64,000 nt of DNA, from assembly GCA_000002445.1 (NCBI GenBank), contig CM000208.1, positions 2,624,001-2,688,000 on the forward strand. Reading direction: 5' to 3'. This DNA comes from Trypanosoma brucei (Eukaryota). The notes under the pieces are model-generated. The model ran no database searches, was not told the origin of the DNA, and worked only from the letters and a program-made list of their open reading frames with translations. The translations under genes were made by a program, and so were the position numbers. Positions 1,172-48,533 of the stretch are shown piece by piece (position 1 is the first letter of the stretch; every line of letters starts with the position of its first letter).

Positions 1172-3532
1172 TCACTTTGCATCTGCCGGCATGCTCGACT
1201 CTAAGTGTATCTGAAGATCTCTTGCATACTGCATAACATCAAAACCATCATCGTTTACTATGAGATCAAAAACTGACGTCCCTCCGATCAAAGAGACGCC
1301 AACCATAAACCTCAGCGACGCATCGCAGAGCTCAATGGCCACTATGGCATCAACCAAAGCTGTCGATACTGGGCCCGTGGACGCAGAGACTTGGCAAGCA
1401 CAAGTTTTTTTCTCTCTTGAACTACTACCCCTTCGTGCGGCTCGTGGATGGCCAACATGTCGCAGCAACGCGTGAGCACAAGTAATCTTTACCAATACAC
1501 TCATCATGACCACATCAACTGCATCCCTACATATGGCTTTAACTGTCAGAAAGTACGAATGGAGTAGTGCCGAACATTGTGGCAAGACTTGCGGTACGGT
1601 TGGCTCCTCAACCGAACGAGCTAACGACCAAGCGTACCACACGTCCCACTGGTTCTCGCACCGGTTAAAGAAATCAACCGTCAGGTTGCAGTCACACTCA
1701 GCATTCCCTCGCAGTGCGCCAAAAAGCACTTCTGCTTGCTCCTGAGGGGATTTGAATGAATGCGATGACACGTGTAAAACGAAGTCCCCCTTGTCAATGA
1801 ACTGAAAAAGGTGCCGCTGCTGTACTAATGTCGATTCCTGGGTCATACCCAGCAGGGCACTGGCGGTACGACATTTAACCGACTGGCCTCCCTCACGGAT
1901 AACAACGTGTTCCCGTTGCTCAAGTGCGCTTTGTATTGCGTTTAGGGCTGGTGTGGTGATTGCTTGTAGCGATGGTATGAAAACAACTTGCTGAAAAGCT
2001 GTGTTCAGTGTGCCCCCTCGAACCCACTCGACGTGGGGAGCCACCCCGTCTTCCGTAGGTAACATTACATGGGAAGCTGGTGCGCGTGCATACATTGGAA
2101 GTAGTGCTTTTTCCAACCCATGTACCACCGGTGACACAAAATTTGTTTCCTCCCCCAGCTCAAGCAAGAATGTCCGCAGTGGAGTAAGGGTATCTGCCGA
2201 CCCCACCACACTAGTGACGACACCACCGTCCTGCAATTTCGAGGACGCGAGGACGATACCCGCTGCCGCCCACAGTGAGATCGGCAACGCGGAGACATCT
2301 AGTGCCGCCAGAATTGCTTCCATTCTCGTTCTCCCATGCGACCCCCTGAATCCTCCGCCAGCTTTCGCGGCAGCAAACGTAACCGCGCCGGCCACGCATT
2401 CCCAACAGCACCTCGCTTGATAAACAGCGCAAACCTCATTGTGCTCACTTGTTTTTGCCATTCCTACCCCGCCACATGGGCGCGCTGAAGGGAAGGGTGG
2501 GGTTAATGCCTCCGCGGTTGACTGCTGATTTGACCACTGCGGGGAAAACCGTGCCGTCCGAACAAAGCGAGCTTTCAGCAGAATCCGTGTGGGTGAAGAA
2601 TCGGGTCCCTTTTTCGAATATAAGGTTGTCCCTCGACCAATTGCGGATGTTTCCACTAATCCCACTGCATGAATACGCTCACCGACCACCAGCGTTTCCT
2701 TCATTTCTAGCTGAGGAATGAATGAGAGATCTAGCCAAAGTGGTTGTTGAGCCACGACACCGACACCGTTGGAGGTCTGGGTTCGCAGCTCCGCAATAGG
2801 CATCGGGTCGCTTGATTCGCGGTGGAGGAAGAAAATACTAGTGATGTGCCCTATAACTTCCCACCATCTCCCGCTCCCGATTAAACCATCACCCGGCCGG
2901 CTGTGCATCGAACGCAGGCCTTGAAGTTGAAGAAAACTCGGCAGCCCGTCCGCAGCGACATGCAACCCTACCTTCAGCTCCTCTGCCCGTATCAAATCCC
3001 AAAAGGCGCATGACCATCGGGATGTGTGCACACATATCATGCACGGAAAGTTCGCGTCACCCGGTCGTACCTCGCAGGTAGGAACGTTTCTCGTGGCAGG
3101 TTCGACTACATGATAGCATGGTTTGTTAAGAAGATTGGCTTCCTTATCTATCGCCACCAAGGCCGCTTCGTGTCTCAGCCAGTTCATTAGCACTTCTTCC
3201 ATAACTTCATCTAGTCTCCTGGGTGACATGACCAGAAGTGAGCCCAAAGTGGGATACTTTGATATCACCTCCATCATATGCACAATCAGTCGGAGGTTTA
3301 CTTGGTTGCAAGCAACTTCTGCGGAGGGAAGCACCCTTGTTACCGTTTCCGCCAGAAACGATAGTTCTGAAAGCAACTGCTCCCGTGTGCTGTCGCCTCC
3401 AAGCAATAGAGTCTGCGCTTCCTGCTTCTCCGTATCGGTACAACCATCGACCATTAAGAGGGTGTCGCTGTGACCCTCTACCATTGTAGAGGCAGTGACG
3501 CAAAAAAGTAGCCCCTCTGATACCGAACACAT
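1172..3532 (-). CDS. Hypothetical protein, 786 aa (true start possibly at internal MVEGHSD). A weak resemblance to a GT4-type glycosyltransferase C-terminal half is not secure.
   Basis: Long uninterrupted ORF on the array strand. Composition matches neighbouring genes. No decisive motif. Confidence 0.6.
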   Translation of the reverse strand: MCSVSEGLLFCVTASTMVEGHSDTLLMVDGCTDTEKQEAQTLLLGGDSTREQLLSELSFLAETVTRVLPSAEVACNQVNLRLIVHMMEVISKYPTLGSLLVMSPRRLDEVMEEVLMNWLRHEAALVAIDKEANLLNKPCYHVVEPATRNVPTCEVRPGDANFPCMICVHTSRWSCAFWDLIRAEELKVGLHVAADGLPSFLQLQGLRSMHSRPGDGLIGSGRWWEVIGHITSIFFLHRESSDPMPIAELRTQTSNGVGVVAQQPLWLDLSFIPQLEMKETLVVGERIHAVGLVETSAIGRGTTLYSKKGPDSSPTRILLKARFVRTARFSPQWSNQQSTAEALTPPFPSARPCGGVGMAKTSEHNEVCAVYQARCCWECVAGAVTFAAAKAGGGFRGSHGRTRMEAILAALDVSALPISLWAAAGIVLASSKLQDGGVVTSVVGSADTLTPLRTFLLELGEETNFVSPVVHGLEKALLPMYARAPASHVMLPTEDGVAPHVEWVRGGTLNTAFQQVVFIPSLQAITTPALNAIQSALEQREHVVIREGGQSVKCRTASALLGMTQESTLVQQRHLFQFIDKGDFVLHVSSHSFKSPQEQAEVLFGALRGNAECDCNLTVDFFNRCENQWDVWYAWSLARSVEEPTVPQVLPQCSALLHSYFLTVKAICRDAVDVVMMSVLVKITCAHALLRHVGHPRAARRGSSSREKKTCACQVSASTGPVSTALVDAIVAIELCDASLRFMVGVSLIGGTSVFDLIVNDDGFDVMQYARDLQIHLESSMPADAK

Positions 3533-3748
3533 TTAGATACAAATAGGAAGAAAAGGAGAGTGGTGGACACAGCAACTCAACCTAACGATTATATAGGCTC
3601 GTATACTAGGTGAGAATAGTAAATACTGTTAGTGTAGCGAACATCCATAAAGAAAAGCCCCTGTCCAACCATCCCGCCGTTCTCCTACCTTTTGAAACAT
3701 ACTCCTCCCCGACCACATGTTGCCTTTCGATGCGCAGTAGCCAGCTCC

Positions 3749-4693
3749 TTACTTCGGCACTGGGATACGATGCTGTAGTGCAACTCCATGCCACCCCAGT
3801 TCTTCCTCAACGCATCGGTTGAGCTCCTCGTCCCTCGCAAGACGTCGGGCACTAGCGCGCATTGCAGCGCTGCCCTCGCAATCGCTTCGCTCGGAACGGT
3901 TAAGCCGCTGAAGTTCTTCACGTATGCGATGGACTGTCGCTTCCGTCAACTGCTCTACGCGCTCAGGTGTATCGAACACCTGGTTCCTTCCCGGTGTGGT
4001 ATCGCGGGAATCTGCATGTCCTTCCAGCCGACATGACATTGTGGACGAAGGTGACACGACACTAGCAACTCCTGCCTCACTACTTTCCCTAGACAAGGTA
4101 ACTGAAGTAGGAAGCCGGACCCACGCTCTGCGTGCCGAGCGAAACCACCCGAGCAGGTCGTCGAGCTGTGCCCAACCGATGGACTCTTCCAGCAGAGGGA
4201 GGCGCTGGTGGACTTCATATCTGTAAAGGTTCTGGCCGTCCCGCACGCGCTGGCGTTCGTATTGTGTAAGATTCACCCAAGCCTTACTTCTATCTTCTAA
4301 CCCCAACTGGCACATCTTTTCCCACAGTTTTGCGCTGATGGCGGATTCAGCACATCGATGAAGGGACGGGATTAGATAACTCCAATTGCATGTGTCATGG
4401 CAATGCCGCTGCAGACCTGCGCACGACCCGTTGGGGGGCCTGCTATGCAGAATCAATTTCCTATGATACAGCTGACCGGACTCTGGCATCGTTGCCTGAG
4501 AGGAGTGCCTCACACCATTTAGGACACCAAGAGCCCGTCCCGAATGCCGCCTCGCGTCGGGATTTTCATACAATAAATCACCGCGACCACTCCCGCCGTA
4601 TACTCGGCGTGAAGGAGTTAGGGTCAGGGAAACGGCATCGGGAAAAACTCCGCCGCCTCGGCGTATTAGTCCCGCTGAAGCCCCCATCTTCAT
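3749..4693 (-). CDS. Hypothetical protein, 314 aa
   Basis: ORF on the array strand. Arg-rich, no recognisable domain. Confidence 0.5.
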   Translation of the reverse strand: MKMGASAGLIRRGGGVFPDAVSLTLTPSRRVYGGSGRGDLLYENPDARRHSGRALGVLNGVRHSSQATMPESGQLYHRKLILHSRPPNGSCAGLQRHCHDTCNWSYLIPSLHRCAESAISAKLWEKMCQLGLEDRSKAWVNLTQYERQRVRDGQNLYRYEVHQRLPLLEESIGWAQLDDLLGWFRSARRAWVRLPTSVTLSRESSEAGVASVVSPSSTMSCRLEGHADSRDTTPGRNQVFDTPERVEQLTEATVHRIREELQRLNRSERSDCEGSAAMRASARRLARDEELNRCVEEELGWHGVALQHRIPVPK

Positions 4694-4995
4694 GATTGGC
4701 TATTGCTACAACATCCGACCAATAGCGAAGCGTACATAGGTGCGCGTGACACAGTTATTCACGAGATCAGTAGGACAGAAGCAGATAACGACGACGATAA
4801 AAGTAAAAAGTAGAGAAACCAAACAAAAAAGTGGCACGAAAGGGGTTTACGCCCTCTCGGTGCCTATGTGTAATGAAGATGAGATGTTTGCACATCTCAT
4901 GCGCCTTCAGTCTCCGTAGGACGCCATACATTTAGCTGCTTTGACCAACCTACCCTGCACACACTGGCCGAAGATCCTCCAAATCACCCACCTGT

Positions 4996-5586
4996 TCAAC
5001 CAGTGTTACCCGAGTACGTATTCCTGGAAAAGTCATCGTCGCGACTCCTCTCAGAGCGATACCAGTAATGGTCCTTTTGTTGCTGTTGGTCCCGGGACAG
5101 TATGGACCAGTTCCGTTCACTGTTTCGGATATTCCAGTGCGGTTCACGAACATAAAGTTGCCCACTTGTAACCTTCATTGTTGCATTACTGTACTTAGTT
5201 GCCTTTTCTTTTTCCATGTCAATAATGCGGCGGAGCTCGTTCCGCTTGGCCTCATCTTGCGTTGTACTAAGTAGAAACTCTAGCTTGCTGATGTGGTCCA
5301 ATGATCCCGCCCTTTGCGCATGGCAGTGGTCATCAATCACTTGGCTACCTTCAACAGAAGAGTCCGTGTACTGTTGTAGTTCGTACTCAAGATGGTTGCT
5401 AACGTTAGGGGAAGGAATGCGGTTTTTGTGTGTCACATTCACCTCGTAAAGAACGGTGGCTGCAGCCGAGGCAAGAAATATGCCCCAAGTACGATAGGGG
5501 TGTTGTTGCACCCACCGCCTCGTGCGGTAAAGCCAGGAAGATATTTCCTTCCCAAGAAATGGAATGGGCACCACCTTCTCACGCAT
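4996..5586 (-). CDS. Hypothetical protein, 196 aa, with one hydrophobic segment (WGIFLASAAATVLY)
   Basis: ORF on the array strand between two larger genes. Confidence 0.45.
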   Translation of the reverse strand: MREKVVPIPFLGKEISSWLYRTRRWVQQHPYRTWGIFLASAAATVLYEVNVTHKNRIPSPNVSNHLEYELQQYTDSSVEGSQVIDDHCHAQRAGSLDHISKLEFLLSTTQDEAKRNELRRIIDMEKEKATKYSNATMKVTSGQLYVREPHWNIRNSERNWSILSRDQQQQKDHYWYRSERSRDDDFSRNTYSGNTG

Positions 5587-5901
5587 GTCAAACCTAACGA
5601 CAGCACTACTGGCTTTCCTTCTGCTTGACTGACACTCACAAATACATGGAATAGCAAGAGATGCGCGCAGCGATGGCTGGGCGGGACAAACAATGTCATT
5701 GCGTTTACAGACAGCAACTCATCAGCTGCTCAAAGGGGAAAACGGACGCTGTTGTAGGGGGTGGGAGGAAGTTCCACATAACTGGTTTCCGTGTCCGATC
5801 GGTTCCCTGCTATGTTAAATTTACAAACTACGAAGGAAGCGCGTAGTAGTGGCGTCTCCGCGCAACTTGGTAGACTTCAAATCTTACACTGTTTTCACGA
5901 G

Positions 5902-7353
5902 CTATTCGCTTGCATCGCATTTTTCCTGTATTTTCCTCAGCAGGGAGAAAGTCACGTTTTCCCCCAACACTAGATGTCTTTCCGCAGTCGTCAGAAAATC
6001 ATACGAGGGGCGTAAACGCCGGAGTTCTGACAGGAGAATGTCACTGAATGGGCCATCTTGGAACGGTCCTGTTTCCGAGTCGGGCGAGCTGCGCAAACAG
6101 CTCTTCAACTTAGCAGCTTGACCGAGACGGAGGAGAAATCCTGAGTAAGTGGCGCAACAACGGCCCCTTATGGTGGGCAACAGTACTTCATAACGCCTAA
6201 GTTCACTCTCTAGGAAACGTGCTGGAAGCCAAAGAAAACGTACGCTGCACAACAAAGACTCTATGGCACCTTCTTTACATGTACAGTTTGAGTCTGGTAC
6301 TGACTCAGGTTTGTCCACCCTTGTTGAAGTGTGCGAAACAGAACCTGTGTGTCTCGATGCCGATGCGAAGCGAACGCAATCCCCCGTGCGATCCGTGAAG
6401 TGTAGCTCACATGCTGCACAAGCAATTTTGTAGGGCATGATTTCATTGGGAAACCCTGTATTCTCCAGCACCTTTCCAAGAACGGAGTACGGAAGATGAG
6501 CCAGTGCATCAACGGAAGTGGTTGTACCTTCAGTACGCAAGACACTGAGTTTCCTTTCCGTATGCTTGGGAGTCTCAATTCCAATAACGCTTTTATTCAA
6601 CCGCTCCACTAACAACGACGCGTAACGGTCTAGGAGGTTGTCGCTAGTCGTCCCAAGAGCCGACGCCAAGAGTTCCTCGCCAAACGAGTTCGGCAGCGTC
6701 TCCCTGCACCTCCAGCAGGCAGGCGGAGGTAAGTTGTAGAAGGTTGTAAGAAGGTCCACAACGTCCAATAACGAGCCGTCAGCCGACTCCAACGACGCAT
6801 TTGGCACACAGCAACCACAGTTGATTTGTGCTCCTTTGGAAGACGCTGCGCCCTCCACGCATTCTCCTCCCTCTTCTTCCCCTGTAAAAGTAGATTGGCA
6901 CGATCCTCCCTGCTGTGGTCCTACACCAGAAGGCACCCTAAAACGTGGCGACAAATCTGACATCGGTTTCACCTCCGATGTTTGGCAGCAACAACAACGA
7001 ACCGAGGGAAACAGGATGAAAGGAAGGGGCTTGGACGCACTTCTGTTACAACATAAAGTCTTTGTTGGTGTAAAAGCACCGTTCTCTTCCCCCAACCTCG
7101 GTCGATCGCCAACATCAACACGGAAAGAATCTAACTTTTTGCGCAGCGACGCCATTTCTCGCTTCAGCTCAATAATATCACTCACATTGACTTCCGCCGC
7201 TCGCCATTCCCGGGGCCGCACCCCCTCATGCCCCGTAGAAAAATCTAAGCTATCGTAAGACGGGGGCGGATCCAGCTGTATCGGAAAGTGGCGTCCATCC
7301 GATGGGGTTTCCAAGGGGAAAACAATATCGTATGGAGGCGGCGGAGAGCCCAT
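5902..7353 (-). CDS. Hypothetical Cys-rich protein, 483 aa, with two N-terminal PPxY motifs (PPPPY at residue 5, PPPSY at residue 30)
   Basis: Long ORF on the array strand. N-terminus reads MGSPPPPYDIVFPLETPSDGRHFPIQLDPPPSYDSLDF. Several CxxC pairs occur later in the protein. Confidence 0.6.
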   Translation of the reverse strand: MGSPPPPYDIVFPLETPSDGRHFPIQLDPPPSYDSLDFSTGHEGVRPREWRAAEVNVSDIIELKREMASLRKKLDSFRVDVGDRPRLGEENGAFTPTKTLCCNRSASKPLPFILFPSVRCCCCQTSEVKPMSDLSPRFRVPSGVGPQQGGSCQSTFTGEEEGGECVEGAASSKGAQINCGCCVPNASLESADGSLLDVVDLLTTFYNLPPPACWRCRETLPNSFGEELLASALGTTSDNLLDRYASLLVERLNKSVIGIETPKHTERKLSVLRTEGTTTSVDALAHLPYSVLGKVLENTGFPNEIMPYKIACAACELHFTDRTGDCVRFASASRHTGSVSHTSTRVDKPESVPDSNCTCKEGAIESLLCSVRFLWLPARFLESELRRYEVLLPTIRGRCCATYSGFLLRLGQAAKLKSCLRSSPDSETGPFQDGPFSDILLSELRRLRPSYDFLTTAERHLVLGENVTFSLLRKIQEKCDASE

Positions 7354-7856: not shown

Positions 7857-10094
7857 TTAATCAAATTCTTCAACATCTAAACCTACTAATGCTTCACCAC
7901 CCTCAGGTGCCACTGCCTCAGGTTGTGCTTCTGCAGGAACTTGCTGTGGCTCTTCAAGCTCTTCAACTGCTTCCACTGCTATGTCACCCTCAGGTGCCGC
8001 TGCCTCAGGTTGTGCTTCTGCAGGAACTTGCTGTGGCTCTTCAAGCTCTTCAACTGCTTCCACTGCTATGTCACCCTCAGGTGCCGCTGCCTCAGGTTGT
8101 GCTTCTGCAGGAACTTGCTGTGGTTCTTCAAGCTCTTCAACTGCTTCCACTGCTATGTCACCCTCAGGTGCCGCTGCCTCAGGTTGTGCTTCTGCAGGAA
8201 CTTGCTGTGGCTCTTCAAGCTCTTCAACTGCTTCCACTGCTATGTCACCCTCAGGTGCCGCTGCCTCAGGTTGTGCTTCTGCAGGAACTTGCTGTGGTTC
8301 TTCAAGCTCTTCAAGTGCTTCCACTGCTATGTCACCCTCAGGTGCCGCTGCCTCAGGTTGTGCTTCTGCAGGAACTTGCTGTGGCTCTTCAAGCTCTTCA
8401 AGTGCTTCCACTGCTATGTCACCCTCAGGTGCCGCTGCCTCAGGTTGTGCTTCTGCAGGAACTTGCTGTGGCTCTTCAAGCTCTTCAACTGCTTCCACTG
8501 CTATGTCACCCTCAGGTGCCGCTGCCTCAGGTTGTGCTTCTGCAGGAACTTGCTGTGGCTCTTCAAGCTCTTCAACTGCTTCCACTGCTATGTCACCCTC
8601 AGGTGCCGCTGCCCCAGGTTGTGCTTCTGCAGGAACTTGCTGTGGCTCTTCAAGCTCTTCAACTGCTTCCACTGCTATGTCACCCTCAGGTGCCGCTGCC
8701 TCAGGTTGTGCTTCTGCAGGAACTTGCTGTGGCTCTTCAAGCTCTTCAACTGCTTCCACTGCTATGTCACCCTCAGGTGCCGCTGCCTCAGGTTGTGCTT
8801 CTGCAGGAACTTGCTGTGGCTCTTCAAGCTCTTCAACTGCTTCCACTGCTATGTCACCCTCAGGTGCCGCTGCCTCAGGTTGTGCTTCTGCAGGAACTTG
8901 CTGTGGTTCTTCAAGCTCTTCAAGTGCTTCCACTGCTATGTCACCCTCAGGTGCCGCTGCCCCAGGTTGTGCTTCTGCAGGAACTTGCTGTGGCTCTTCA
9001 AGCTCTTCAACTGCTTCCACTGCTATGTCACCCTCAGGTGCCGCTGCCTCAGGTTGTGCTTCTGCAGGAACTTGCTGTGGCTCTTCAAGCTCTTCAACTG
9101 CTTCCACTGCTATGTCACCCTCAGGTGCCGCTGCCTCAGGTTGTGCTTCTGCAGGAACTTGCTGTGGCTCTTCAAGCTCTTCAACTGCTTCCACTGCTAT
9201 GTCACCCTCAGGTGCCGCTGCCTCAGGTTGTGCTTCTGCAGGAACTTGCTGTGGTTCTTCAAGCTCTTCAAGTGCTTCCACTGCTATGTCACCCTCAGGT
9301 GCCGCTGCCTCAGGTTGTGCTTCTGCAGGAACTTGCTGTGGCTCTTCAAGCTCTTCAAGTCCTTCCACTGCTATGTCACCCTCAGGTTGTGCCTCAGGTT
9401 GTGCTTCTGCAGGAACTTGCTGTGGCTCTTCAAGCTCTTCAACTGCTTCCACTGCTATGTCACCCTCAGGTGCCGCTGCCTCAGGTTGTGCTTCTGCAGG
9501 AACTTGCTGTGGCTCTTCAAGCTCTTCAACTGCTTCCACTGCTATGTCACCCTCAGGTGCCGCTGCCTCAGGTTGTGCTTCTGCAGGAACTTGCTGTGGT
9601 TCTTCAAGCTCTTCAAGTGCTTCCACTGCTATGTCACCCTCAGGTGCCGCTGCCTCAGGTTGTGCCTCAGGTTGTGCTTCTGCAGGAACTTGCTGTGGCT
9701 CTTCAAGCTCTTCAAGTGCTTCCACTGCTATGTCACCCTCAGGTGCCGCTGCCTCAGGTTGTGCTTCTGCAGGAACTTGCTGTGGCTCTTCAAGCTCTTC
9801 AAGTGCTTCCACTGCTATGTCACCCTCAGGTGCCGCTGCCTCAGGTTGTGCCTCAGGTTGTGCTTCTGCAGGAACTTGCTGTGGTTCTTCAAGCTCTTCA
9901 AGTGCTTCCACTGCTATGTCACCCTCAGGTTGTGCCTCAGGTTGTGCTTCTGCAGGAACTTGCTGTGGCTCTTCAAGCTCTTCAAGTGCTTCCACTGCTA
10001 TGTCACCCTCAGGTGCCGCTGCCTCAGGTTGTGCCTCAGGTTGTGCTTCTGCAGGAACTTGCTGTGGCTCTTCAAGCTCTTCAACTGCTTCCAC
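7857..10094 (-). CDS. C-terminal part of the giant repeat protein: about 25 tandem 28/29/33-aa units (EELEEPQQVPAEAQPEAAAPEGDIAVEAL). It is out of frame with the upstream part because of indels at about 10.10-10.22 kb.
   Basis: ORF with no unique N-terminus. It has the same repeat as the 3' end of ORF 10189..15138. The M at 10094 is internal to a repeat. Confidence 0.65.
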   Translation of the reverse strand: MEAVEELEEPQQVPAEAQPEAQPEAAAPEGDIAVEALEELEEPQQVPAEAQPEAQPEGDIAVEALEELEEPQQVPAEAQPEAQPEAAAPEGDIAVEALEELEEPQQVPAEAQPEAAAPEGDIAVEALEELEEPQQVPAEAQPEAQPEAAAPEGDIAVEALEELEEPQQVPAEAQPEAAAPEGDIAVEAVEELEEPQQVPAEAQPEAAAPEGDIAVEAVEELEEPQQVPAEAQPEAQPEGDIAVEGLEELEEPQQVPAEAQPEAAAPEGDIAVEALEELEEPQQVPAEAQPEAAAPEGDIAVEAVEELEEPQQVPAEAQPEAAAPEGDIAVEAVEELEEPQQVPAEAQPEAAAPEGDIAVEAVEELEEPQQVPAEAQPGAAAPEGDIAVEALEELEEPQQVPAEAQPEAAAPEGDIAVEAVEELEEPQQVPAEAQPEAAAPEGDIAVEAVEELEEPQQVPAEAQPEAAAPEGDIAVEAVEELEEPQQVPAEAQPGAAAPEGDIAVEAVEELEEPQQVPAEAQPEAAAPEGDIAVEAVEELEEPQQVPAEAQPEAAAPEGDIAVEALEELEEPQQVPAEAQPEAAAPEGDIAVEALEELEEPQQVPAEAQPEAAAPEGDIAVEAVEELEEPQQVPAEAQPEAAAPEGDIAVEAVEELEEPQQVPAEAQPEAAAPEGDIAVEAVEELEEPQQVPAEAQPEAAAPEGDIAVEAVEELEEPQQVPAEAQPEAVAPEGGEALVGLDVEEFD

Positions 10095-11615
10095 TGCTAT
10101 GTCACCCTCAGGTTGTGCCTCAGGTTGTGCAGGTGTGCTTCTGCAGGAACTTGCTGTGGTTCTTCAAGCTCTTCAAGTGCTTCCACTGCTATGTCACCCT
10201 CAGGTTCGCTGCCTCAGGTTGTGCTTCTGCAGGAACTTGCTGTGGTTCTTCAAGCTCTTCAAGTGCTTCCACTGCTATGTCACCCTCAGGTGCCGCTGCC
10301 TCAGGTTGTGCTTCTGCAGGAACTTGCTGTGGCTCTTCAAGCTCTTCAAGTGCTTCCACTGCTATGTCACCCTCAGGTGCCGCTGCCTCAGGTTGTGCCT
10401 CAGGTTGTGCTTCTGCAGGAACTTGCTGTGGCTCTTCAAGCTCTTCAAGTGCTTCCACTGCTATGTCACCCTCAGGTGCCGCTGCCTCAGGTTGTGCCTC
10501 AGGTTGTGCTTCTGCAGGAACTTGCTGTGGTTCTTCAAGCTCTTCAAGTGCTTCCACTGCTATGTCACCCTCAGGTGCCGCTGCCTCAGGTTGTGCCTCA
10601 GGTTGTGCTTCTGCAGGAACTTGCTGTGGCTCTTCAAGCTCTTCAACTGCTTCCACTGCTATGTCACCCTCAGGTTGTGCCTCAGGTTGTGCTTCTGCAG
10701 GAACTTGCTGTGGCTCTTCAAGCTCTTCAAGTGCTTCCACTGCTATGTCACCCTCAGGTGCCGCTGCCTCAGGTTGTGCCTCAGGTTGTGCTTCTGCAGG
10801 AACTTGCTGTGGTTCTTCAAGCTCTTCAAGTGCTTCCACTGCTATGTCACCCTCAGGTGCCGCTGCCTCAGGTTGTGCCTCAGGTTGTGCTTCTGCAGGA
10901 ACTTGCTGTGGCTCTTCAAGCTCTTCAACTGCTTCCACTGCTATGTCACCCTCAGGTTGTGCCTCAGGTTGTGCTTCTGCAGGAACTTGCTGTGGCTCTT
11001 CAAGCTCTTCAAGTGCTTCCACTGCTATGTCACCCTCAGGTGCCGCTGCCTCAGGTTGTGCCTCAGGTTGTGCTTCTGCAGGAACTTGCTGTGGCTCTTC
11101 AAGCTCTTCAAGTGCTTCCACTGCTATGTCACCCTCAGGTGCCGCTGCCTCAGGTTGTGCCTCAGGTTGTGCTTCTGCAGGAACTTGCTGTGGCTCTTCA
11201 AGCTCTTCAACTGCTTCCACTGCTATGTCACCCTCAGGTTGTGCCTCAGGTTGTGCTTCTGCAGGAACTTGCTGTGGCTCTTCAAGCTCTTCAAGTGCTT
11301 CCACTGCTATGTCACCCTCAGGTGCCGCTGCCTCAGGTTGTGCCTCAGGTTGTGCTTCTGCAGGAACTTGCTGTGGCTCTTCAAGCTCTTCAACTGCTTC
11401 CACTGCTATGTCACCCTCAGGTGCCGCTGCCTCAGGTTGTGCCTCAGGTTGTGCTTCTGCAGGAACTTGCTGTGGCTCTTCAAGCTCTTCAAGTGCTTCC
11501 ACTGCTATGTCACCCTCAGGTTGTGCCTCAGGTTGTGCTTCTGCAGGAACTTGCTGTGGCTCTTCAAGCTCTTCAACTGCTTCCACTGCTATGTCACCCT
11601 CAGGTGCCGCTGCCT
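7860..11615. repeat. Tandem array of 84/87/99-nt coding repeats (28/29/33 aa), about 40 copies
   Basis: Direct reading. The unit ...atgtcaccctcaggtgccgctgcctcaggttgtgc[ctcaggttgtgc]ttctgcaggaacttgctgtggctcttcaagctcttcaa(c/g)tgcttccactgct recurs with 87-nt spacing (for example 7921 to 8008). Variants carry a 12-nt insertion (99 nt) or a 3-nt deletion (84 nt). Confidence 0.95.
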
Positions 11616-14600
11616 CAGGCTGCGCAATGTCAAGCTCCTTTTGATCTTCAGGCTCAAGTGTCTGAATCACCTCAAGCTGCGCAATGTCAAGCTCCTTTTG
11701 ATCTTCAGGCTCGAGTGTCTGAATCACCTCAGGCTGCGCAATGTCAAGCTCCTTTTGATCTTCAGGCTCAAGTGTCTGAATCACCTCAGGCTGCGCAATG
11801 TCAAGCTCCTTTTGATCTTCAGGCTCGAGTGTCTGAATGACCTCAGGCTGCGCAATGTCAAGCTCCTTTTGATCCTCAGGTTCAAGTGTCTGAATCACCT
11901 CAGGCTGCGCAATGTCAAGCTCCTTTTGATCTTCAGGCTCGGGTGTCTGAATCACCTCAGGCTGCGCAATGTCAAGCTCCTTTTGATCTTCAGGCTCGAG
12001 TGTCTGAATCACCTCAGGCTGCGCAATGTCAAGCTCCTTTTGATCTTCAGGCTCAAGTGTCTGAATCACCTCAGGCTGCGCAATGTCAAGCTCCTTTTGA
12101 TCTTCAGGCTCGGGTGTCTGAATCACCTCAGGCTGCGCAATGTCAAGCTCCTTTTGATCTTCAGGCTCGAGTGTCTGAATCACCTCAGGCTGCGCAATGT
12201 CAAGCTCCTTTTGATCTTCAGGCTCAAGTGTCTGAATCACCTCAGGCTGCGCAATTTCAAGCTCCTTTTGATCTTCAGGCTCAAGTGTCTGAATCACCTC
12301 AGGCTGCGCAATGTCAAGCTCCTTTTGATCTTCAGGCTCGAGTGTCTGAATCACCTCAGGCTGCGCAATGTCAAGCTCCTTTTGATCTTCAGGTTCAAGT
12401 GTCTGAATCACCTCAGGCTGCGCAATGTCAAGCTCCTTTTGATCTTCAGGCTCGAGTGTCTGAATCACCTCAGGCTGCGCAATGTCAAGCTCCTTTTGAT
12501 CTTCCGGCTCAAGTGTCTGAATCACCTCAGGCTGCGCAATGTCAAGCTCCTTTTGATCTTCAGGCTCAAGTGTCTGAATCACCTCAGGCTGCGCAATGTC
12601 AAGCTCCTTTTGATCTTCAGGCTCAAGTGTCTGAATCACCTCAGGCTGCGCAATGTCAAGCTCCTTTTGATCTTCAGGCTCAAGTGTCTGAATCACCTCA
12701 GGCTGCGCAATGTCAAGCTCCTTTTGATCTTCAGGCTCAAGTGTCTGAATCACCTCAGGCTGCGCAATGTCAAGCTCCTTTTGATCTTCAGGCTCAAGTG
12801 TCTGAATCACCTCAAGCTGCGCAATGTCAAGCTCCTTTTGATCTTCAGGCTCAAGTGTCTGAATCACCTCAGGCTGCGCAATGTCAAGCTCCTTTTGATC
12901 TTCAGGCTCGGGTGTCTGAATCACCTCAGGCTGCGCAATGTCAAGCTCCTTTTGATCTTCAGGCTCAAGTGTCTGAATCACCTCAGGCTGCGCAATGTCA
13001 AGCTCCTTTTGATCTTCAGGCTCGAGTGTCTGAATGACCTCAGGCTGCGCAATGTCAAGCTCCTTTTGATCCTCAGGTTCAAGTGTCTGAATCACCTCAG
13101 GCTGCGCAATGTCAAGCTCCTTTTGATCTTCAGGCTCGGGTGTCTGAATCACCTCAGGCTGCGCAATGTCAAGCTCCTTTTGATCTTCAGGCTCAAGTGT
13201 CTGAATCACCTCAGGCTGCGCAATGTCAAGCTCCTTTTGATCTTCAGGCTCAAGTGTCTGAATCACCTCAGGCTGCGCAATTTCAAGCTCCTTTTGATCT
13301 TCAGGCTCAAGTGTCTGAATCACCTCAGGCTGCGCAATGTCAAGCTCCTTTTGATCTTCAGGCTCAAGTGTCTGAATCACCTCAGGCTGCGCAATGTCAA
13401 GCTCCTTTTGATCTTCAGGCTCAAGTGTCTGAATCACCTCAGGCTGCGCAATGTCAAGCTCCTTTTGATCTTCAGGCTCGAGTGTCTGAATCACCTCAGG
13501 CTGCGCAATGTCAAGCTCCTTTTGATCTTCAGGCTCAAGTGTCTGAATCACCTCAGGCTGCGCAATGTCAAGCTCCTTTTGATCTTCAGGCTCAAGTGTC
13601 TGAATCACCTCAGGCTGCGCAATGTCAAGCTCCTTTTGATCTTCAGGCTCGAGTGTCTGAATCACCTCAGGCTGCGCAATGTCAAGCTCCTTTTGATCTT
13701 CAGGTTCAAGTGTCTGAATCACCTCAGGCTGCGCAATGTCAAGCTCCTTTTGATCTTCAGGTTCAAGCTTTTTGAATGCAATTTTCTCTGTATGTTCACG
13801 CTCCTTTTTTTTGTTTTCTTGTGTGATTTCTTCTTGATGATCGTTTGTTTTTAATTTTTCTTTTTGTGGTTTATTTTCTTTTGGGAGTTGAACTTCTTGG
13901 GGATCTTGGTTTGTGGTCGAGTCCTGTTTTTTTAGTTGTGGTTGGTGCCACTGCTGCTGCTCGGCTGTTTCATGAGCGTGAGCAAAACTTTTTTTCGGGT
14001 CAAGTATTTTGGTGTTTTGAGGCAGTGATTGCCTTTTTTGATTTGCTTCTTTACATGTTTGTTTTTTACTAATTGTTTCAGTTAGTGGCGTTTGGGCACT
14101 GCTGATGCGTGCCTCCTTAGCTTTGAGGTATATCGTCCTTCTCTCCATTTCTTGAAGGATGTCACCTCTGTTGATTTGTTCATTTTTTTCCATTCGTTGG
14201 CGTAATTTGCCTTCATCTTCAACCACGCCAACTACCTTCTTTAGTTCATGAAACGCCTCTTGCAGTAGAAGGTATGACCTTCGCAGGTCTACCATGATTT
14301 CCATGTAACTGAAGTAATGCTTTGTGTCAAGTGCTATTCTTTCTTGTATATTTTTCTGATACTGCCTCTCAACAAGCCGTTGGCGCTGTTTGGCGTGCAT
14401 ATCCCTCAGAACTTGTCTGTGAGTTTCACTGCGCTGTTTGTCTTTAATATCCAACGTTTCGCGCGTTTTGGCACTTATGTGTTCATATTTTTCCTTTGAT
14501 ATTCGGTCAATAGTCTCCTGCACTTTTGGCAAGAGAGTATCGAGCATGCGGTCAATGCGGCGTAGGGTGCGGTTGCGTTCGTTTTCTTCCTTTTTCCGAA

Positions 14601-15138
14601 TCCTCGCAGAAACCTCCTTGTCTAACTCATGCTGTGTTTTGTCATGGTCGTATTTTGTTAGCACCTGCTGTAGGCGTGAAGACCGCCATAGTCTAATATT
14701 ACTGTCAATTTGCGCGATTTCCTCCTCAATTGAAGGACTGTCATTAACAATGTGTCGTTGACTAAAAAAAACAGAGTTTAACACAGGTTGCCCGGCATCA
14801 GGAAGGGACTTGCTCACCTCTGTATAAAACGTCATATCGTGCATTGCATCACTAACCAACAACCCCTTAGCCACATCATCTGCTGCTGCAGCGCCGGCGT
14901 ACACGGACGGTCCTTTCGGACGCCGGAAAGAGGAGAGGGGGAGATAATCCGGCTTTGAGGGTTTGGCAGGGATCTTCAATTGCTTGCTATCGACCTCTGT
15001 GCTGACTTGCTCCAGTAGTGGTTCTGCAACCGTCGACGTTGTTGTAGGTTGCTCCTTGGCCTGCTCCTGAGGCGATCTCCCCTCGCCTGGGGAATTATTA
15101 TACATTGCTACTGCTGTTGCTATTTTCCCCCTTTCCAC
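10189..15138 (-). CDS. Giant repetitive protein, N-terminal 1649 aa. A unique charged, coiled-coil-like domain of about 450 aa is followed by about 38 copies of a 19-aa repeat (LEPEDQKELDIAQPEVIQT), then in-frame 28/33-aa repeats.
   Basis: Long ORF with a unique N-terminal region (15138 to about 13780) and a seamless in-frame junction between the two repeat types at about 11.62-11.64 kb. Together with 7857..10094 it would encode about 2400 aa. Confidence 0.8.
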   Translation of the reverse strand: MERGKIATAVAMYNNSPGEGRSPQEQAKEQPTTTSTVAEPLLEQVSTEVDSKQLKIPAKPSKPDYLPLSSFRRPKGPSVYAGAAAADDVAKGLLVSDAMHDMTFYTEVSKSLPDAGQPVLNSVFFSQRHIVNDSPSIEEEIAQIDSNIRLWRSSRLQQVLTKYDHDKTQHELDKEVSARIRKKEENERNRTLRRIDRMLDTLLPKVQETIDRISKEKYEHISAKTRETLDIKDKQRSETHRQVLRDMHAKQRQRLVERQYQKNIQERIALDTKHYFSYMEIMVDLRRSYLLLQEAFHELKKVVGVVEDEGKLRQRMEKNEQINRGDILQEMERRTIYLKAKEARISSAQTPLTETISKKQTCKEANQKRQSLPQNTKILDPKKSFAHAHETAEQQQWHQPQLKKQDSTTNQDPQEVQLPKENKPQKEKLKTNDHQEEITQENKKKEREHTEKIAFKKLEPEDQKELDIAQPEVIQTLEPEDQKELDIAQPEVIQTLEPEDQKELDIAQPEVIQTLEPEDQKELDIAQPEVIQTLEPEDQKELDIAQPEVIQTLEPEDQKELDIAQPEVIQTLEPEDQKELDIAQPEVIQTLEPEDQKELDIAQPEVIQTLEPEDQKELEIAQPEVIQTLEPEDQKELDIAQPEVIQTLEPEDQKELDIAQPEVIQTPEPEDQKELDIAQPEVIQTLEPEDQKELDIAQPEVIQTLEPEDQKELDIAQPEVIQTLEPEDQKELDIAQPEVIQTPEPEDQKELDIAQPEVIQTLEPEDQKELDIAQLEVIQTLEPEDQKELDIAQPEVIQTLEPEDQKELDIAQPEVIQTLEPEDQKELDIAQPEVIQTLEPEDQKELDIAQPEVIQTLEPEDQKELDIAQPEVIQTLEPEDQKELDIAQPEVIQTLEPEDQKELDIAQPEVIQTLEPEDQKELDIAQPEVIQTLEPEDQKELDIAQPEVIQTLEPEDQKELEIAQPEVIQTLEPEDQKELDIAQPEVIQTLEPEDQKELDIAQPEVIQTPEPEDQKELDIAQPEVIQTLEPEDQKELDIAQPEVIQTLEPEDQKELDIAQPEVIQTPEPEDQKELDIAQPEVIQTLEPEDQKELDIAQPEVIQTLEPEDQKELDIAQPEVIQTLEPEDQKELDIAQPEVIQTLEPEDQKELDIAQLEVIQTLEPEDQKELDIAQPEAAAPEGDIAVEAVEELEEPQQVPAEAQPEAQPEGDIAVEALEELEEPQQVPAEAQPEAQPEAAAPEGDIAVEAVEELEEPQQVPAEAQPEAQPEAAAPEGDIAVEALEELEEPQQVPAEAQPEAQPEGDIAVEAVEELEEPQQVPAEAQPEAQPEAAAPEGDIAVEALEELEEPQQVPAEAQPEAQPEAAAPEGDIAVEALEELEEPQQVPAEAQPEAQPEGDIAVEAVEELEEPQQVPAEAQPEAQPEAAAPEGDIAVEALEELEEPQQVPAEAQPEAQPEAAAPEGDIAVEALEELEEPQQVPAEAQPEAQPEGDIAVEAVEELEEPQQVPAEAQPEAQPEAAAPEGDIAVEALEELEEPQQVPAEAQPEAQPEAAAPEGDIAVEALEELEEPQQVPAEAQPEAQPEAAAPEGDIAVEALEELEEPQQVPAEAQPEAAAPEGDIAVEALEELEEPQQVPAEAQPEAANLRVT
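11615..13775. repeat. Tandem array of a 57-nt coding repeat (19 aa), about 38 copies, highly homogenised
   Basis: Direct reading. ttgatcttcaggctcaagtgtctgaatcacctcaggctgcgcaatgtcaagctcctt repeats with exact 57-nt period; only a few point variants (caa/cgg/cga, gtc/ttc). Confidence 0.95.
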
Positions 15139-20319: not shown

Positions 20320-22857
20320 TTAGCTTCTGGCAGTGAGTCTGACAATATCAACCGGAGTGCAGACATCAATGTCGCATAATTTAGATTGCACTTCTTTCCA
20401 TTTTTTCATCTTCATTGCAGTGGTTACCTTTCCCCGCTTCGTCTTGCCAGGTACTGTTGTCCGACCTCCTTTGCATGACGTGGGAACTTCTCGCAGATAC
20501 GGTAGTAAGGCAAGAAGACCATTGTTACTGCACACGAAACAACACTCAGTATTTTTGCTGTTGGGATCCTCCACACTGCCCTCATTCACAACATCCCCAC
20601 GTTGACTGCTTCTAGAGCCACTCACCGCCCGCCTGCAATGATCAGAAATTAGAGACTTCCAGCCAGCGTGGTCCCAAACCCACGCGTAGGCAAGGCAACA
20701 ACCAAAACGCATAGAAAAAAATGGGGCTGTAGCAATGGTGCCGATGCGCGTAAGCTCCGGAATGGTGACGCACAGAGTTGCACCACTCTCTTCCTGATCC
20801 TTCGGTTTCAAAAGCAAAAGTGCACCTCCCACTTCCTGATGTTGCCGCCCCCCTCTTGCCGAAAATTTCAAAAGGACACGTTGGTGGGCATTGGAGGGCG
20901 AATGGTACAGACGTGCCACCCCCGAATTGCGCCAGACATTCCGTGCACTTTCCCTGCCGAACAACGCGTAGCACCCGGAGAGTAGTTGCAAAGTTTCTCG
21001 TTCCTCTTCGCCGATCGCCCGTGCGGAGTATGCGTAACCATTACTCCTGCATAGCCCCACGGTCCCGGCAACCTCTTCAGAATCGTCACACCATTGCCTC
21101 CACGTGGCCGCAACTGGTGACACGACACTGGAGAACAAATGCCTCGAAAGCTGGAAGTGGCAGGCGCGGTACGACCACGTGTTGCACGTCCTACTACTAC
21201 CAAGGGCGTCAGCATTACGAATGCGGCGTACAGAAACCGCAAGTACTGTCACCACACATTGGTGGATGGGAAAACTGGTACAGTCAACAATGTCCGTAAA
21301 TGGCGGAAACGATGGGAAAGTAAACACCTTGACGCCTCCTAACGCCCTTTTTGTTGGCGTCAGGGATGATGACTTAGTTGAAAGAAAAACATTTGAATTT
21401 TCAGCCTCCAAAAACTCGCTACTCTCGCTCTTCCCAGCTGTTGCAGAGTGCCATCTCATCATTGCCTTGTCTACTCGCTGCCGCACCCATGAATGGCTGG
21501 GCAGAACCGCTTTTTCACCACATTCCTGTGCGGCTGCCCCAGCACAACACCAGACCTCTAACATGGAACTCAGAAAACCCACCGCCGGGCATGGATTCCA
21601 GTGCGAAATGAGACAGAAGCTGAGGTGTCGCCGCGCTTGTGGGCCGAAATACACTGGACAAGGCGCAATCAAGTAGTATGTATCTCCTCTTCCCACTTTT
21701 CCATCGCGCACAAGCACCAGTGTCACAGCAACTACAGGGTTTGATTGTACCGTGCAAGCATCCTGTGGGAACGGGTAACCAGCGGCTTTGGCGGCGGCAG
21801 ACCACACGTAGCCGTAGTAGACACTACAGCCGTTGGTTTGCCATGTTCCGCCGGTGGGATCCGGGGTTGTTTTGCTAAGGCGAAAACTTTTAGTGTAACC
21901 CATGGCCGGCGGGTTTTCATTCGTACGCATTATTAGTAGATTCATTAGCTCCTCTGGCGAAAAACGCCTCTCCATGTTCAGCTGCTGCAGGCGCCACACG
22001 CACATGTGAGACCTTTCAGCAACGAAGCACATGGGTGGTGGGACAGCCGTTAACTTGCCCCTGTGCTGTCTCACAACTTTTGAAGTCATCTGTGAGGAAA
22101 CAAAAGTGGGCAATCTCGCGACCCAACGCTGTAATATTCGGTGTTGCTTCCTCTGACATTTAAGGGGCACGGCGATTCTCAGTGTGACGGTGCAGGAAGG
22201 CGTACCTCTACCGCTGCCTCCACCTACAATGGCCAGATCGGGTTCTGGGTTTGGACAGGGGGAGACCTTTGCCTTTTCCACACAGTAATGAAACCGCCGA
22301 CGCATGTACCAATGGGATGGTAGCCATAAAATCGAAGTTCTACCGGGGACAGCTCCTGTGAGAATGGTTCCATGATTAGGCATCGCGCAGTTGCAGAGTG
22401 GTTTCTGATACTTACCATACCGTAACGCAAAAATACGGCGCAACAACCGCCGACGAGTAGTGGGGCGACGCCTCAAAGCCACTCTTCGCCTTCTTCTCAA
22501 CAGTGAACACCATTGTGAATACGTGAATAACCGTTTCTTGGGCTTTTTAGTGCATGCACTGAGCATGATAGCTTCCCTTGTGCTTTGCCGCCGGGGATCA
22601 CGAGAAGCATGCCGCATTCTGTCGTGCATATGCCGCTTCATGTTGCACAGTGGCACGTTTGAGGACGATGGTCGGCGGTGAAGAGGAACTGCCGGGCGCT
22701 TAGGAAGGCCACAGCTGCTTCCCTGCTCTCCTGTATCATCAACGTCAGCACCTCCTCTGCTATCGACGCCATCATCACGTGGCCTTTTTCGGAAGAGTAA
22801 CGTGGAAAAAGCTGCCACTTCCTCCACTCTGTTTTTCAGCAACTCTGCAACATTCAT
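20320..22857 (-). CDS. Hypothetical protein, 845 aa
   Basis: Long ORF on the array strand. Arg-rich N-terminal region. No domain recognised. Confidence 0.6.
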   Translation of the reverse strand: MNVAELLKNRVEEVAAFSTLLFRKRPRDDGVDSRGGADVDDTGEQGSSCGLPKRPAVPLHRRPSSSNVPLCNMKRHMHDRMRHASRDPRRQSTREAIMLSACTKKPKKRLFTYSQWCSLLRRRRRVALRRRPTTRRRLLRRIFALRYGKYQKPLCNCAMPNHGTILTGAVPGRTSILWLPSHWYMRRRFHYCVEKAKVSPCPNPEPDLAIVGGGSGRGTPSCTVTLRIAVPLKCQRKQHRILQRWVARLPTFVSSQMTSKVVRQHRGKLTAVPPPMCFVAERSHMCVWRLQQLNMERRFSPEELMNLLIMRTNENPPAMGYTKSFRLSKTTPDPTGGTWQTNGCSVYYGYVWSAAAKAAGYPFPQDACTVQSNPVVAVTLVLVRDGKVGRGDTYYLIAPCPVYFGPQARRHLSFCLISHWNPCPAVGFLSSMLEVWCCAGAAAQECGEKAVLPSHSWVRQRVDKAMMRWHSATAGKSESSEFLEAENSNVFLSTKSSSLTPTKRALGGVKVFTFPSFPPFTDIVDCTSFPIHQCVVTVLAVSVRRIRNADALGSSRTCNTWSYRACHFQLSRHLFSSVVSPVAATWRQWCDDSEEVAGTVGLCRSNGYAYSARAIGEEERETLQLLSGCYALFGRESARNVWRNSGVARLYHSPSNAHQRVLLKFSARGGRQHQEVGGALLLLKPKDQEESGATLCVTIPELTRIGTIATAPFFSMRFGCCLAYAWVWDHAGWKSLISDHCRRAVSGSRSSQRGDVVNEGSVEDPNSKNTECCFVCSNNGLLALLPYLREVPTSCKGGRTTVPGKTKRGKVTTAMKMKKWKEVQSKLCDIDVCTPVDIVRLTARS

Positions 22858-23265
22858 CGCTGCTGCTGCCTTTTGACCTTGTTAATGTCACGGTAAAAGT
22901 TAATTTTCCTCCCGCTTTTTACACCTTTTTTTTCTCTCAGAATAAGTATTTTATGTACGGCACTTCTGCACGCCTCTGAGTAGCCTTATTGCCAGTCGTC
23001 GGACGAAAAAGGCGTTTCCTTGGTCTTACAGCATGTGGCTAGAGCCACGTTTTACGCAACACAAAAGTGCTCCTTCTAAATATGTAATACGCACCCAAAA
23101 TCATTAAGAAAGAGAATGCAGAAAAAGCAGATTCATCGTGTGTTTTACAAATGTTCGATCAATGCTGCATGCCAGTTTTCACGCTTTATATATACGTGCC
23201 TGTTTGCGGGAGAGATATATGAGGCTCACGACCTTCCGAGACGAAGGAACACGGAACTTTATTTT

Positions 23266-47557: not shown

Positions 47558-48042
47558 AGATGCCTTAGGGGTAAAGGGTCTTCCTTTGGTCTGAAGTCGT
47601 ACTATTTCGCGCCGCTACCTCGCTTCGCTCCACATACGAGAAAAAGTGGCGGAGAGTTTTTTCCCACCAGTGAAATTACAAACGGTAAGCGATCAGCTAC
47701 GGGGTGACTAACATTTATTTACGGGTGGCTGCCGTGGAGATGCTTATGCATCCTTATTCTCTGGGTGTTCACCTTCCTTTCAGCCCATTTTATGTGGGCG
47801 TGAGCCCTGTGCACCTGCCTGCAGTGGCACCAGTGTCGATTGCGCAAACCATCATCCAACTTACCAGTGAGTTACACTTGGGATGCCACGGCTGGGAAGA
47901 GGTATCAACCCGCAATCATACCTGTGCAAAACGCGAAAGTCAAGTGGTTTTCCTTTTTTTTCTTAAAAAAAAAATGAAAGTCGCAGTAAGCAGGGGGGAG
48001 GGTTTAAACAGCCACTGCGGCTGCACCTTTTGGACGGAACGG

Positions 48043-48399: not shown

Positions 48400-48533
48400 G
48401 ACAACAACCTAGAGCAGTACACCTACGGCCGCCGGGTCACAACGCCGGCGCAACAAGGGAAAGGCGATAGGAGGAACAAATGGCTCGTTTAGTCTGGTAT
48501 AATTAGAAGCAAAAAAAAAAGCTATGTGGACCT

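What the first reader, a model, noticed from the sequence alone, without database searches (positions are those of the whole stretch)
10095..10215. Two closely spaced indels break the reading frame inside the repeat array
Relative to the repeat consensus there is an 8-nt insertion (ggttgtgc-AGGTGTGC-ttctgcagg at about 10128-10136) and, one unit later, a 1-nt deletion (ggtTCgctgcc instead of ggtGCCgctgcc at about 10211-10215). The upstream ORF (10189..15138) therefore terminates and the downstream repeats continue in another frame (7857..10094). Either the gene is genuinely truncated (it would still encode 1649 aa with about 16 C-terminal repeat units), or this is a consensus or assembly error typical of collapsed repeats.
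Basis: seen in the sequence. Interest (0 to 1): 0.5.

Follow-up and report, generated by a model that had tools for sequence, protein, structure and literature searches.

The report
Frame break in trypanosome flagellar repeat gene
Two adjacent damaged repeat units split a giant, very acidic flagellar repeat-protein gene of Trypanosoma brucei TREU927 into two reading frames; this is more likely a local error in the assembled repeat than a real truncation, and it is ordinary either way.

Summary
In the 84/87/99-nt array (7898-11619, gene on the minus strand), only two adjacent units out of 40 complete units have lengths not divisible by 3. One is 92 nt (10094-10185, 8 extra bases at 10131-10138). 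The other is 86 nt (10186-10271, GC replaced by T at 10206). The net change is +7, so the frame is not restored. Translation from ATG 15105 stops at TAG 10191-10189 after 1638 aa. The 2.2 kb of repeats downstream stay open in another frame, contain no Met, and end in a tail shared with two other T. brucei subspecies.

The window is T. b. brucei TREU927 chromosome 10. The gene is the Trypanosoma-specific "flagellar antigen / paraflagellar rod protein", probably TbI17.

Adding one base to each bad unit gives a single ORF of 2416 aa. Thirty-six of the 40 units have an exact twin, but these two carry 2 and 8 private edits. Both lesions lie in the only length-variable part of the unit.

No independent assembly resolves the site. 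TEOVI breaks at the array, DAL972 has a gap, and the IVM-t1 PacBio assembly is too noisy.

Best reading: a local consensus or assembly artefact (about 0.55). The rival is a real strain- or allele-specific truncation (about 0.4). Interest is low.

The parts
7857..15105 (-). Whole gene as it would read without the frame break: ATG at 15105, stop TAA at 7859-7857. Product is 2416 aa and 265 kDa if one base is added to each aberrant unit.
   Evidence: The start MYNNSPGEG is the same as in the DAL972 and IVM-t1 gene calls.
13768..15105 (-). Non-repetitive N-terminal region (446 aa). About 330 aa of it is conserved across Trypanosoma species.
   Evidence: hits at E 1e-206 to 1e-79 in T. b. equiperdum, T. 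congolense, T. vivax, T. theileri, T. cruzi, T. rangeli and others, named 'putative flagellar antigen' or 'paraflagellar rod protein'. No Pfam family and no PDB relative.
11613..13767 (-). 57-nt (19-aa) tandem array, about 38 copies (EPEDQKELDIAQPEVIQTL), all in frame.
7898..11619 (-). 84/87/99-nt (28/29/33-aa) tandem array, about 41 copies (VEAVEELEEPQQVPAEAQPE[AQPE][AAAPE]GDIA).
10186..10271 (-). Unit 15, 86 nt. It is an 87-type unit whose sense strand reads GCAGCGAACCT instead of GCAGCGGCACCT (GC->A; on the + strand, T at 10206). This is the first lesion met by the ribosome.
10189..10191 (-). TAG stop codon, reached 6 codons after the first lesion (…EAANLRVT*).
10094..10185 (-). Unit 16, 92 nt. 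It is an 84-type unit with 8 extra bases at 10131-10138. The simplest reading is a 9-nt tandem duplication of GCACAACCT that has lost one A.
7857..10094 (-). Downstream open frame of 745 codons: 24 further repeat units plus the tail GGEALVGLDVEEFD*. It has no Met codon, so it would be untranslated 3' sequence if the break is real.
   Evidence: The same tail is found in DAL972 and IVM-t1.

Best explanation
The frame break is most likely a local consensus or assembly error in the T. brucei TREU927 chromosome 10 sequence. It sits inside the 3.7-kb near-identical repeat array of the Trypanosoma-specific flagellar repeat antigen, probably TbI17. In the parasite the gene would then be one ORF of about 2416 aa: an N-terminal conserved domain of about 330 aa, then about 38 repeats of 19 aa, then about 41 repeats of 28-33 aa, then a short tail.

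The proposed cause is an inference, not something shown. Reads from repeat units of different type (84, 87 or 99 nt), or from two alleles whose arrays differ in unit order, were aligned out of register exactly where the unit types differ in length. The consensus there became a mosaic that is short by one base in each of two neighbouring units.
For: Shown:
- Only 2 of 40 units break the frame. They are adjacent, and both lesions lie in the QPEA/AAAPE sub-repeat zone, the only part of the unit that varies in length.
- Thirty-six of the 40 units have an exact twin and two differ by 1 nt, whereas these two units carry 2 and 8 private edits.
- Every other length difference in the array is 3, 12 or 15 nt, meaning in frame, as expected of real slippage under selection.
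- Adding one base per unit restores a single 2416-aa ORF. The repaired units read as plausible variants...EAAEPEGDIA and ...AEAQPAQPEAQPEGDIA.
- Unit 15 is a left-87-type/right-84-type mosaic.
- The 2.2 kb downstream stays open with no stop, and it ends in the tail GGEALVGLDVEEFD* that T. b. gambiense DAL972 and T. b. equiperdum IVM-t1 also use.
- Neither aberrant junction sequence occurs in those two assemblies.
- Every other assembly fails on this array. TEOVI breaks at both edges. DAL972 has a 100-N gap. IVM-t1 has about 20 frame-breaking units of long-read noise.

Against: - No read-level data could be examined, so the error is inferred and not demonstrated.
- The strain is TREU927, whose reference, from my own knowledge, is a finished Sanger-era sequence. 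An extra 8 bases is not a typical base-calling error.
- A unit as distinctive as this could equally be a real landmark supported by several reads.
- The same mosaic pattern could arise in vivo from mis-registered recombination or repair between unit types.
- Real allele-specific premature stops exist in T. brucei and are tolerated because there is no nonsense-mediated decay (PMC8445201).
- Orthologues in other species carry few or no repeats, so loss of 25 repeats need not be harmful.
Confidence: 0.55

Rival explanations
1. The break is a real frameshift in TREU927, on one or both alleles. A mis-registered exchange or repair event between repeat units of different type left two mosaic units. 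The gene now encodes a 1638-aa, 184-kDa protein that keeps the conserved N-terminal domain, all the 19-aa repeats and about 15 of the longer repeats. It loses about 25 repeats and the 14-aa tail, and the remaining array becomes 3' untranslated sequence.
For: - The sequence as given says so.
- The C-terminal repeat region is not conserved in kind or length across species. T. congolense has 12-aa repeats in a 767-aa protein, and the T. vivax, T. cruzi and T. rangeli proteins are 310-415 aa. A shorter array is therefore plausibly tolerated.
- Array sizes already differ greatly between T. brucei subspecies: 38 copies of the 57-nt unit against 13 and 11.
- T. brucei has documented allele-specific premature stops and lacks NMD (PMC8445201).
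- One complex event would explain why the two lesions are neighbours.
Against: - At least four separate edits are needed: a 9-nt duplication, two 1-nt losses and a substitution. All lie within 80 nt of an array whose other 38 units carry only two private edits in total.
- Natural length changes elsewhere in the array are all multiples of 3.
- The downstream frame and tail show no decay.
- The lesions are absent from DAL972 and IVM-t1.
- The second lesion would have had to arise in already untranslated sequence, right next to the first.
Confidence: 0.4
2. The break is bypassed during expression by programmed ribosomal frameshifting or another recoding event, so that one long protein is made from the sequence as written.
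For: There is none beyond the fact that the downstream frame is open.
Against: - Two shifts would be needed, -1 and then +8/-1 equivalent, 75 nt apart.
- After the first lesion a stop follows within 6 codons.
- The region has no sequence context of its own beyond the two lesions: apart from them, both units match repeat units that read through normally elsewhere in the array.
- The lesions are not conserved in related strains.
- From general knowledge, nuclear mRNAs of trypanosomes are not edited.
Confidence: 0.02

Closest known systems
TbI17 (Tb10.26.0960), repetitive flagellar cytoskeleton antigen of T. brucei (Imboden et al. 1995, as summarised in PMC2813431)
   Same: - It is on chromosome 10 of TREU927.
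- It is a high-molecular-weight repeat protein: above 180 kDa in the paper, against 184 kDa truncated or 265 kDa repaired here.
- Orthologues are in Trypanosoma, including T. cruzi, but were not reported in Leishmania. Here all strong and named hits are Trypanosoma.
- The source names of the orthologues are 'putative flagellar antigen' and 'paraflagellar rod protein'.
   Different: - I could not map the old gene identifier to these coordinates.
- I could not compare the published I17 repeat sequence, because that paper is not in the library.
- PFC16 (Tb10.26.0680) lies in the same old contig, but it has Leishmania orthologues, so it fits less well.
False frameshifts in collapsed T. brucei assemblies caused by internal repeats whose length differs between alleles (Cosentino, Brink & Siegel 2021, PMC8445201)
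   Same: - The species is the same.
- The frame break lies inside an internal coding repeat whose units differ in length.
   Different: That work concerned a PacBio assembly of Lister 427. This window is strain TREU927, and its sequencing history could not be read from the data. Allelic length difference at this locus is not shown.
Allele-specific premature termination codons in T. brucei (same paper)
   Same: A frameshifting indel gives a shorter product that is still expressed, because NMD is absent.
   Different: Those cases were supported by phased reads, RNA-seq and Ribo-seq. No such data could be examined here.
Other giant repeat antigens of the trypanosome flagellum and cytoskeleton (Tb5.20, TbI2/GM6, MARP)
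   Same: They share the overall design: a non-repetitive part plus dozens of near-identical tandem coding repeats. They are also hard to assemble.
   Different: There is no sequence relationship. This protein has no PFR domain (PF05149) or any other Pfam domain.

Membership tests
TbI17 / Trypanosoma 'flagellar antigen' orthologue group | Encoded on T. brucei chromosome 10 (old identifier Tb10.26.0960) | tested here: inconclusive
   The window is TREU927 chromosome 10. The 684-aa neighbour is exactly EAN78490.1, a sequence seen only in that strain. Four other neighbours are identical to EAN78485, EAN78488, EAN78491 and EAN78492. The old identifier could not be mapped to these coordinates.
TbI17 / Trypanosoma 'flagellar antigen' orthologue group | High-molecular-weight (>180 kDa) tandem-repeat protein | tested here: met
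   The truncated product is 1638 aa and 184 kDa. The repaired product is 2416 aa and 265 kDa. About 80% of the protein is tandem repeats. The criterion comes from PMC2813431.
TbI17 / Trypanosoma 'flagellar antigen' orthologue group | Orthologues in T. cruzi and other Trypanosoma, none in Leishmania | tested here: inconclusive
   All hits with E<1e-30 are Trypanosoma species. Weak hits at E 1e-12 to 1e-5 come from an unnamed library, so their organisms are unknown.
TbI17 / Trypanosoma 'flagellar antigen' orthologue group | Localises to the zone between paraflagellar rod and axoneme | not testable with these tools
   This needs immunolocalisation or tagging. The claim is taken from PMC2813431.
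PFR1/PFR2-type paraflagellar rod proteins | PFR domain PF05149 | tested here: not met
   The N-terminal 457 aa match no Pfam family at E<=0.01.
Assembly artefact from collapsed or mis-registered coding repeats | Frame break lies inside an internal repeat whose units differ in length | tested here: met
   Both lesions are in the segment that distinguishes the 84-, 87- and 99-nt units.
Assembly artefact from collapsed or mis-registered coding repeats | Lesion absent from reads, or resolved by phasing | not testable with these tools
   There is no access to reads. TREU927 DNA is not held by the contig look-up.
Assembly artefact from collapsed or mis-registered coding repeats | Related genomes read through the equivalent region | tested here: inconclusive
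   In DAL972 all resolved units are in frame, but the array has a 100-N gap. IVM-t1 is too noisy to judge. TEOVI is broken at the array. The junction k-mers are absent from all of them.
Genuine pseudogene or truncated allele | Decay or loss of constraint downstream of the first stop | tested here: not met
   The 745 downstream codons are open. Every unit downstream of unit 16 is divisible by 3, and the tail is identical to that of other subspecies. This is weak evidence, because the array is so homogeneous that little time for decay is implied.

The most novel reading that the evidence does not exclude
The frameshift is real in TREU927, at least on one allele. The widely used reference strain would then express a flagellar repeat antigen (probably TbI17) that lacks about 25 of its 41 distal repeats and its C-terminal tail. 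That would be a natural experiment showing that most of the distal acidic array is dispensable, and it would mean C-terminal tagging designs and antigen-based reagents for this gene are strain-dependent.
Probability: 0.4. Interest if true: 0.2.

Novelty: already known. Interest (0 to 1): 0.12.

Why it matters
The finding matters only in practical terms. If it is an error, the reference gene model for a large flagellar antigen is about 780 aa too short and lacks its true C-terminus. That affects tagging primers, proteomic databases, antigen design and pseudogene counts. If it is real, it is one more allele- or strain-specific premature stop in an organism already known to tolerate them. It would also say that repeat number in this protein is loosely constrained, which the large copy-number differences between subspecies already suggest. 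Neither outcome changes our understanding of trypanosome biology.

Tried and rejected
- **Bacterial or phage origin.** Megablast against phages found nothing. Exact protein look-ups then placed the window in T. brucei.
- **TREU927 record.** I tried to fetch it through three exact neighbour proteins. It is not held by the contig index.
- **Reference protein for this gene (expected EAN78489).** I looked it up from all nine possible Met starts of the truncated ORF. None is in the collection, so I cannot say how the reference annotates it.
- **Search with the 745-aa repeat-only ORF.** It gave no scored hit, probably because of composition filtering. Other strains' repeat proteins could not be collected that way.
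- **Search with the N-terminal domain.** Neither search returned a full-length T. brucei protein. Even the DAL972 1027-aa call, which exists, was missed, so absence there is uninformative.
- **PDB sequence search with the N-terminal domain.** No match.
- **Literature searches.** Searches for the repeat peptides, Q389N1, the TbI17 identifiers and a photolyase-based route to the new gene number found nothing usable.
- **Possible long-read source for the window.** I considered the recent Nanopore T. brucei assembly, but that paper concerns Lister 427, not TREU927.
- **Tb5.20.** I first suspected this gene, then rejected it because it is on chromosome 11 and carries a PFR domain.
- **Recoding or programmed frameshifting.** Rejected for the reasons given under the rival explanations.

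Full report
**1. What is in the sequence**

Tandem Repeats Finder reports two abutting arrays on the + strand: a 57-nt array of 37.8 copies at 11613-13767, and an 87/99-nt array of about 41 copies at 7898-11619.

I split the second array at a fixed anchor, which gave 40 complete units. Thirty-eight of them are 84, 87 or 99 nt long. The two exceptions are neighbours:
- 10094-10185 is 92 nt. It is an 84-type unit with AGGTGTGC added at 10131-10138.
- 10186-10271 is 86 nt. It is an 87-type unit in which GGTGCCGC has become GGTTCGC at 10203-10209.

The gene is on the minus strand. The ORF 10189..15138 ends ...EAQPEAANLRVT* at TAG 10191-10189, six codons after the first lesion. The ORF 7857..10094 carries 24 more units and a short tail in a different frame. 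Because +8-1 = +7, the two changes do not compensate.

**2. Whose gene it is**

Nearly all large ORFs in the window are on one strand and few have Pfam domains. The exceptions found were a photolyase and a SET-domain protein.

Exact look-ups put the window in Trypanosoma brucei. Four neighbours are identical to TREU927 proteins. The 684-aa neighbour equals EAN78490.1, a sequence recorded only for TREU927. The T. equiperdum OVI contigs are 99.8-99.9% identical at the DNA level but not identical.

The source is therefore T. b. brucei TREU927 chromosome 10, in a polycistronic unit. The true start is the ATG at 15105 (MYNNSPGEG...), as in the DAL972 and IVM-t1 gene calls. That gives 1638 aa, not 1649.

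**3. What the protein is**

The first 446 aa are non-repetitive. About 330 aa are conserved at 45-55% identity in T. congolense, T. vivax, T. theileri, T. melophagium, T. cruzi, T. conorhini and T. rangeli. The sources name these proteins "putative flagellar antigen" or "paraflagellar rod protein". A word-index-free search of 1.8 billion representative proteins found no other strong relatives. There is no Pfam family and no solved structure.

The orthologues are 310-767 aa long, and their acidic repeats are different or absent. The huge arrays are therefore a T. brucei elaboration on a conserved N-terminal module.

The review PMC2813431 lists TbI17 (Tb10.26.0960) as a high-molecular-weight repeat antigen on chromosome 10. 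Antibody to it labels the zone between the paraflagellar rod and the axoneme, and it has a T. cruzi orthologue but none in Leishmania. This gene fits that description. I could not prove the identity.

**4. Anatomy of the two lesions**

In sense orientation, unit 15 reads GCAGCGAACCTGAGG where 87-type units read GCAGCGGCACCTGAGG and 84-type units read GGCACAACCTGAGG. Its left half is 87-type and its right half is 84-type, and it is one base short.

Unit 16 reads GAAGCACACCTGCACAACCTGAGG. This is most simply a 9-nt tandem duplication of GCACAACCT that has lost one A.

Adding a single base to each unit yields one ORF of 2416 aa (265 kDa, pI 4.05). The repaired units read ...EAAEPEGDIA and ...AEAQPAQPEAQPEGDIA.

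Both lesions lie in the QPEA/AAAPE sub-repeat zone, the only part of the unit that differs in length between unit types. The array is otherwise extremely homogeneous. Thirty-six units have an exact twin, two differ by one base, and units 15 and 16 differ from any other unit by 2 and 8 edits. The chance that two random frame-breaking units are adjacent is 39/780 = 0.05.

The cause is therefore local and tied to the mixture of unit types. It could have happened in the cell, through mis-registered exchange or repair. It could equally have happened in the assembly, through reads or alleles aligned out of register.

**5. Other assemblies**

- *T. equiperdum OVI (Illumina).* It breaks at both edges of the repeats. 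One contig starts at window position 7966 and the other ends at 13652.
- *T. b. gambiense DAL972.* The gene is called at 1027 aa and the array contains a 100-N gap. All resolved units are in frame, and the tail GGEALVGLDVEEFD* is present.
- *T. b. equiperdum IVM-t1 (PacBio).* It spans the array, but about 20 units have lengths not divisible by 3 and there are obvious single-base dropouts. The gene is called at only 340 aa. The tail is again present.

Neither aberrant junction, down to 8-10-mers, occurs in these assemblies. Nothing independently reproduces the indels, and nothing cleanly reads through the homologous position either.

**6. Weighing the two readings**

*Points favouring an artefact:*
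- The damage is concentrated at one spot.
- Every other length difference in the array is a multiple of 3.
- One base per unit repairs the gene.
- The downstream frame and tail are intact and conserved.
- There is a direct precedent: in T. brucei, internal repeats of differing allelic length create false frameshifts in collapsed assemblies (PMC8445201).

*Points favouring a real truncation:*
- The sequence says so.
- From my own knowledge, the TREU927 reference was finished to a high standard. An 8-base surplus is not a simple base-calling slip.
- The distal repeats are evolutionarily labile.
- T. brucei tolerates allele-specific premature stops.

I put the artefact at about 0.55, a real strain- or allele-specific truncation at about 0.4, and recoding at about 0.02.

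If the break is real, the 745-codon downstream frame has no Met and would be 3' UTR.

**7. Novelty and verdict**

The gene family, the kind of repeat and both candidate explanations are all known. The finding is a sound quality flag on a reference gene model, not a biological novelty. The k-mer count and the spanning-read test listed under next steps would settle it quickly.

Noticed in passing
window 11613-13767; L004 7105-7846; L003 11368-11995: The 57-nt (19-aa) array has 38 copies in TREU927, but only 13 in DAL972 and about 11 countable copies in IVM-t1. This is either a roughly threefold real expansion in TREU927 or collapse in the other assemblies. The TREU927 array also shows a higher-order pattern of variant units (E, P, P, L) that occurs twice.
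   Followed up: partly
window 10359-11585: The proximal part of the long-unit array is a higher-order repeat of 84+99+99 nt, about four times. The distal part (7976-9367) is pure 87-nt units. The two aberrant units sit in the irregular transition zone between these two parts. No 99-nt unit is seen in DAL972 or IVM-t1.
   Followed up: partly
L004 8611-8818 (DAL972): Next to the 100-N gap, DAL972 carries about 200 nt encoding a different acidic sequence (EEQEEEPPEAAAEAPAAEAAVAEEAFEELEEQEEAPAEAAAEAP...). It is absent from the TREU927 window and from IVM-t1. It may be a gambiense-specific repeat type or a misplaced read at the gap edge.
   Followed up: partly
window 7889-13854, + strand: Antisense to the repeats there are very long open frames with ATG starts: 7981-13854 (1957 aa), longer than the truncated sense ORF, and 7889-11644 (1251 aa). 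They are a by-product of the repeat composition but could mislead gene callers.
   Followed up: no
window 1172-7353 and 20320-24015: The TREU927 gene models for several neighbours start at downstream ATGs compared with the TEOVI or DAL972 models of the same ORFs: 417 vs 483 aa, 770 vs 786, 773 vs 845, 73 vs 196, and 218 vs 249.
   Followed up: no
window 51409-51666 (gene 51378-52811, minus strand): There is an imperfect 36-nt coding repeat giving about 9 copies of PPPPQQGYTYGQ at the C-terminus of a predicted membrane protein.
   Followed up: no
window 1-64000: All ORFs longer than 250 aa outside the repeat region, bar one (47704-48492, +, 262 aa), are on the minus strand, and cumulative GC skew falls steadily. 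This is consistent with a single trypanosomatid polycistronic transcription unit.
   Followed up: no
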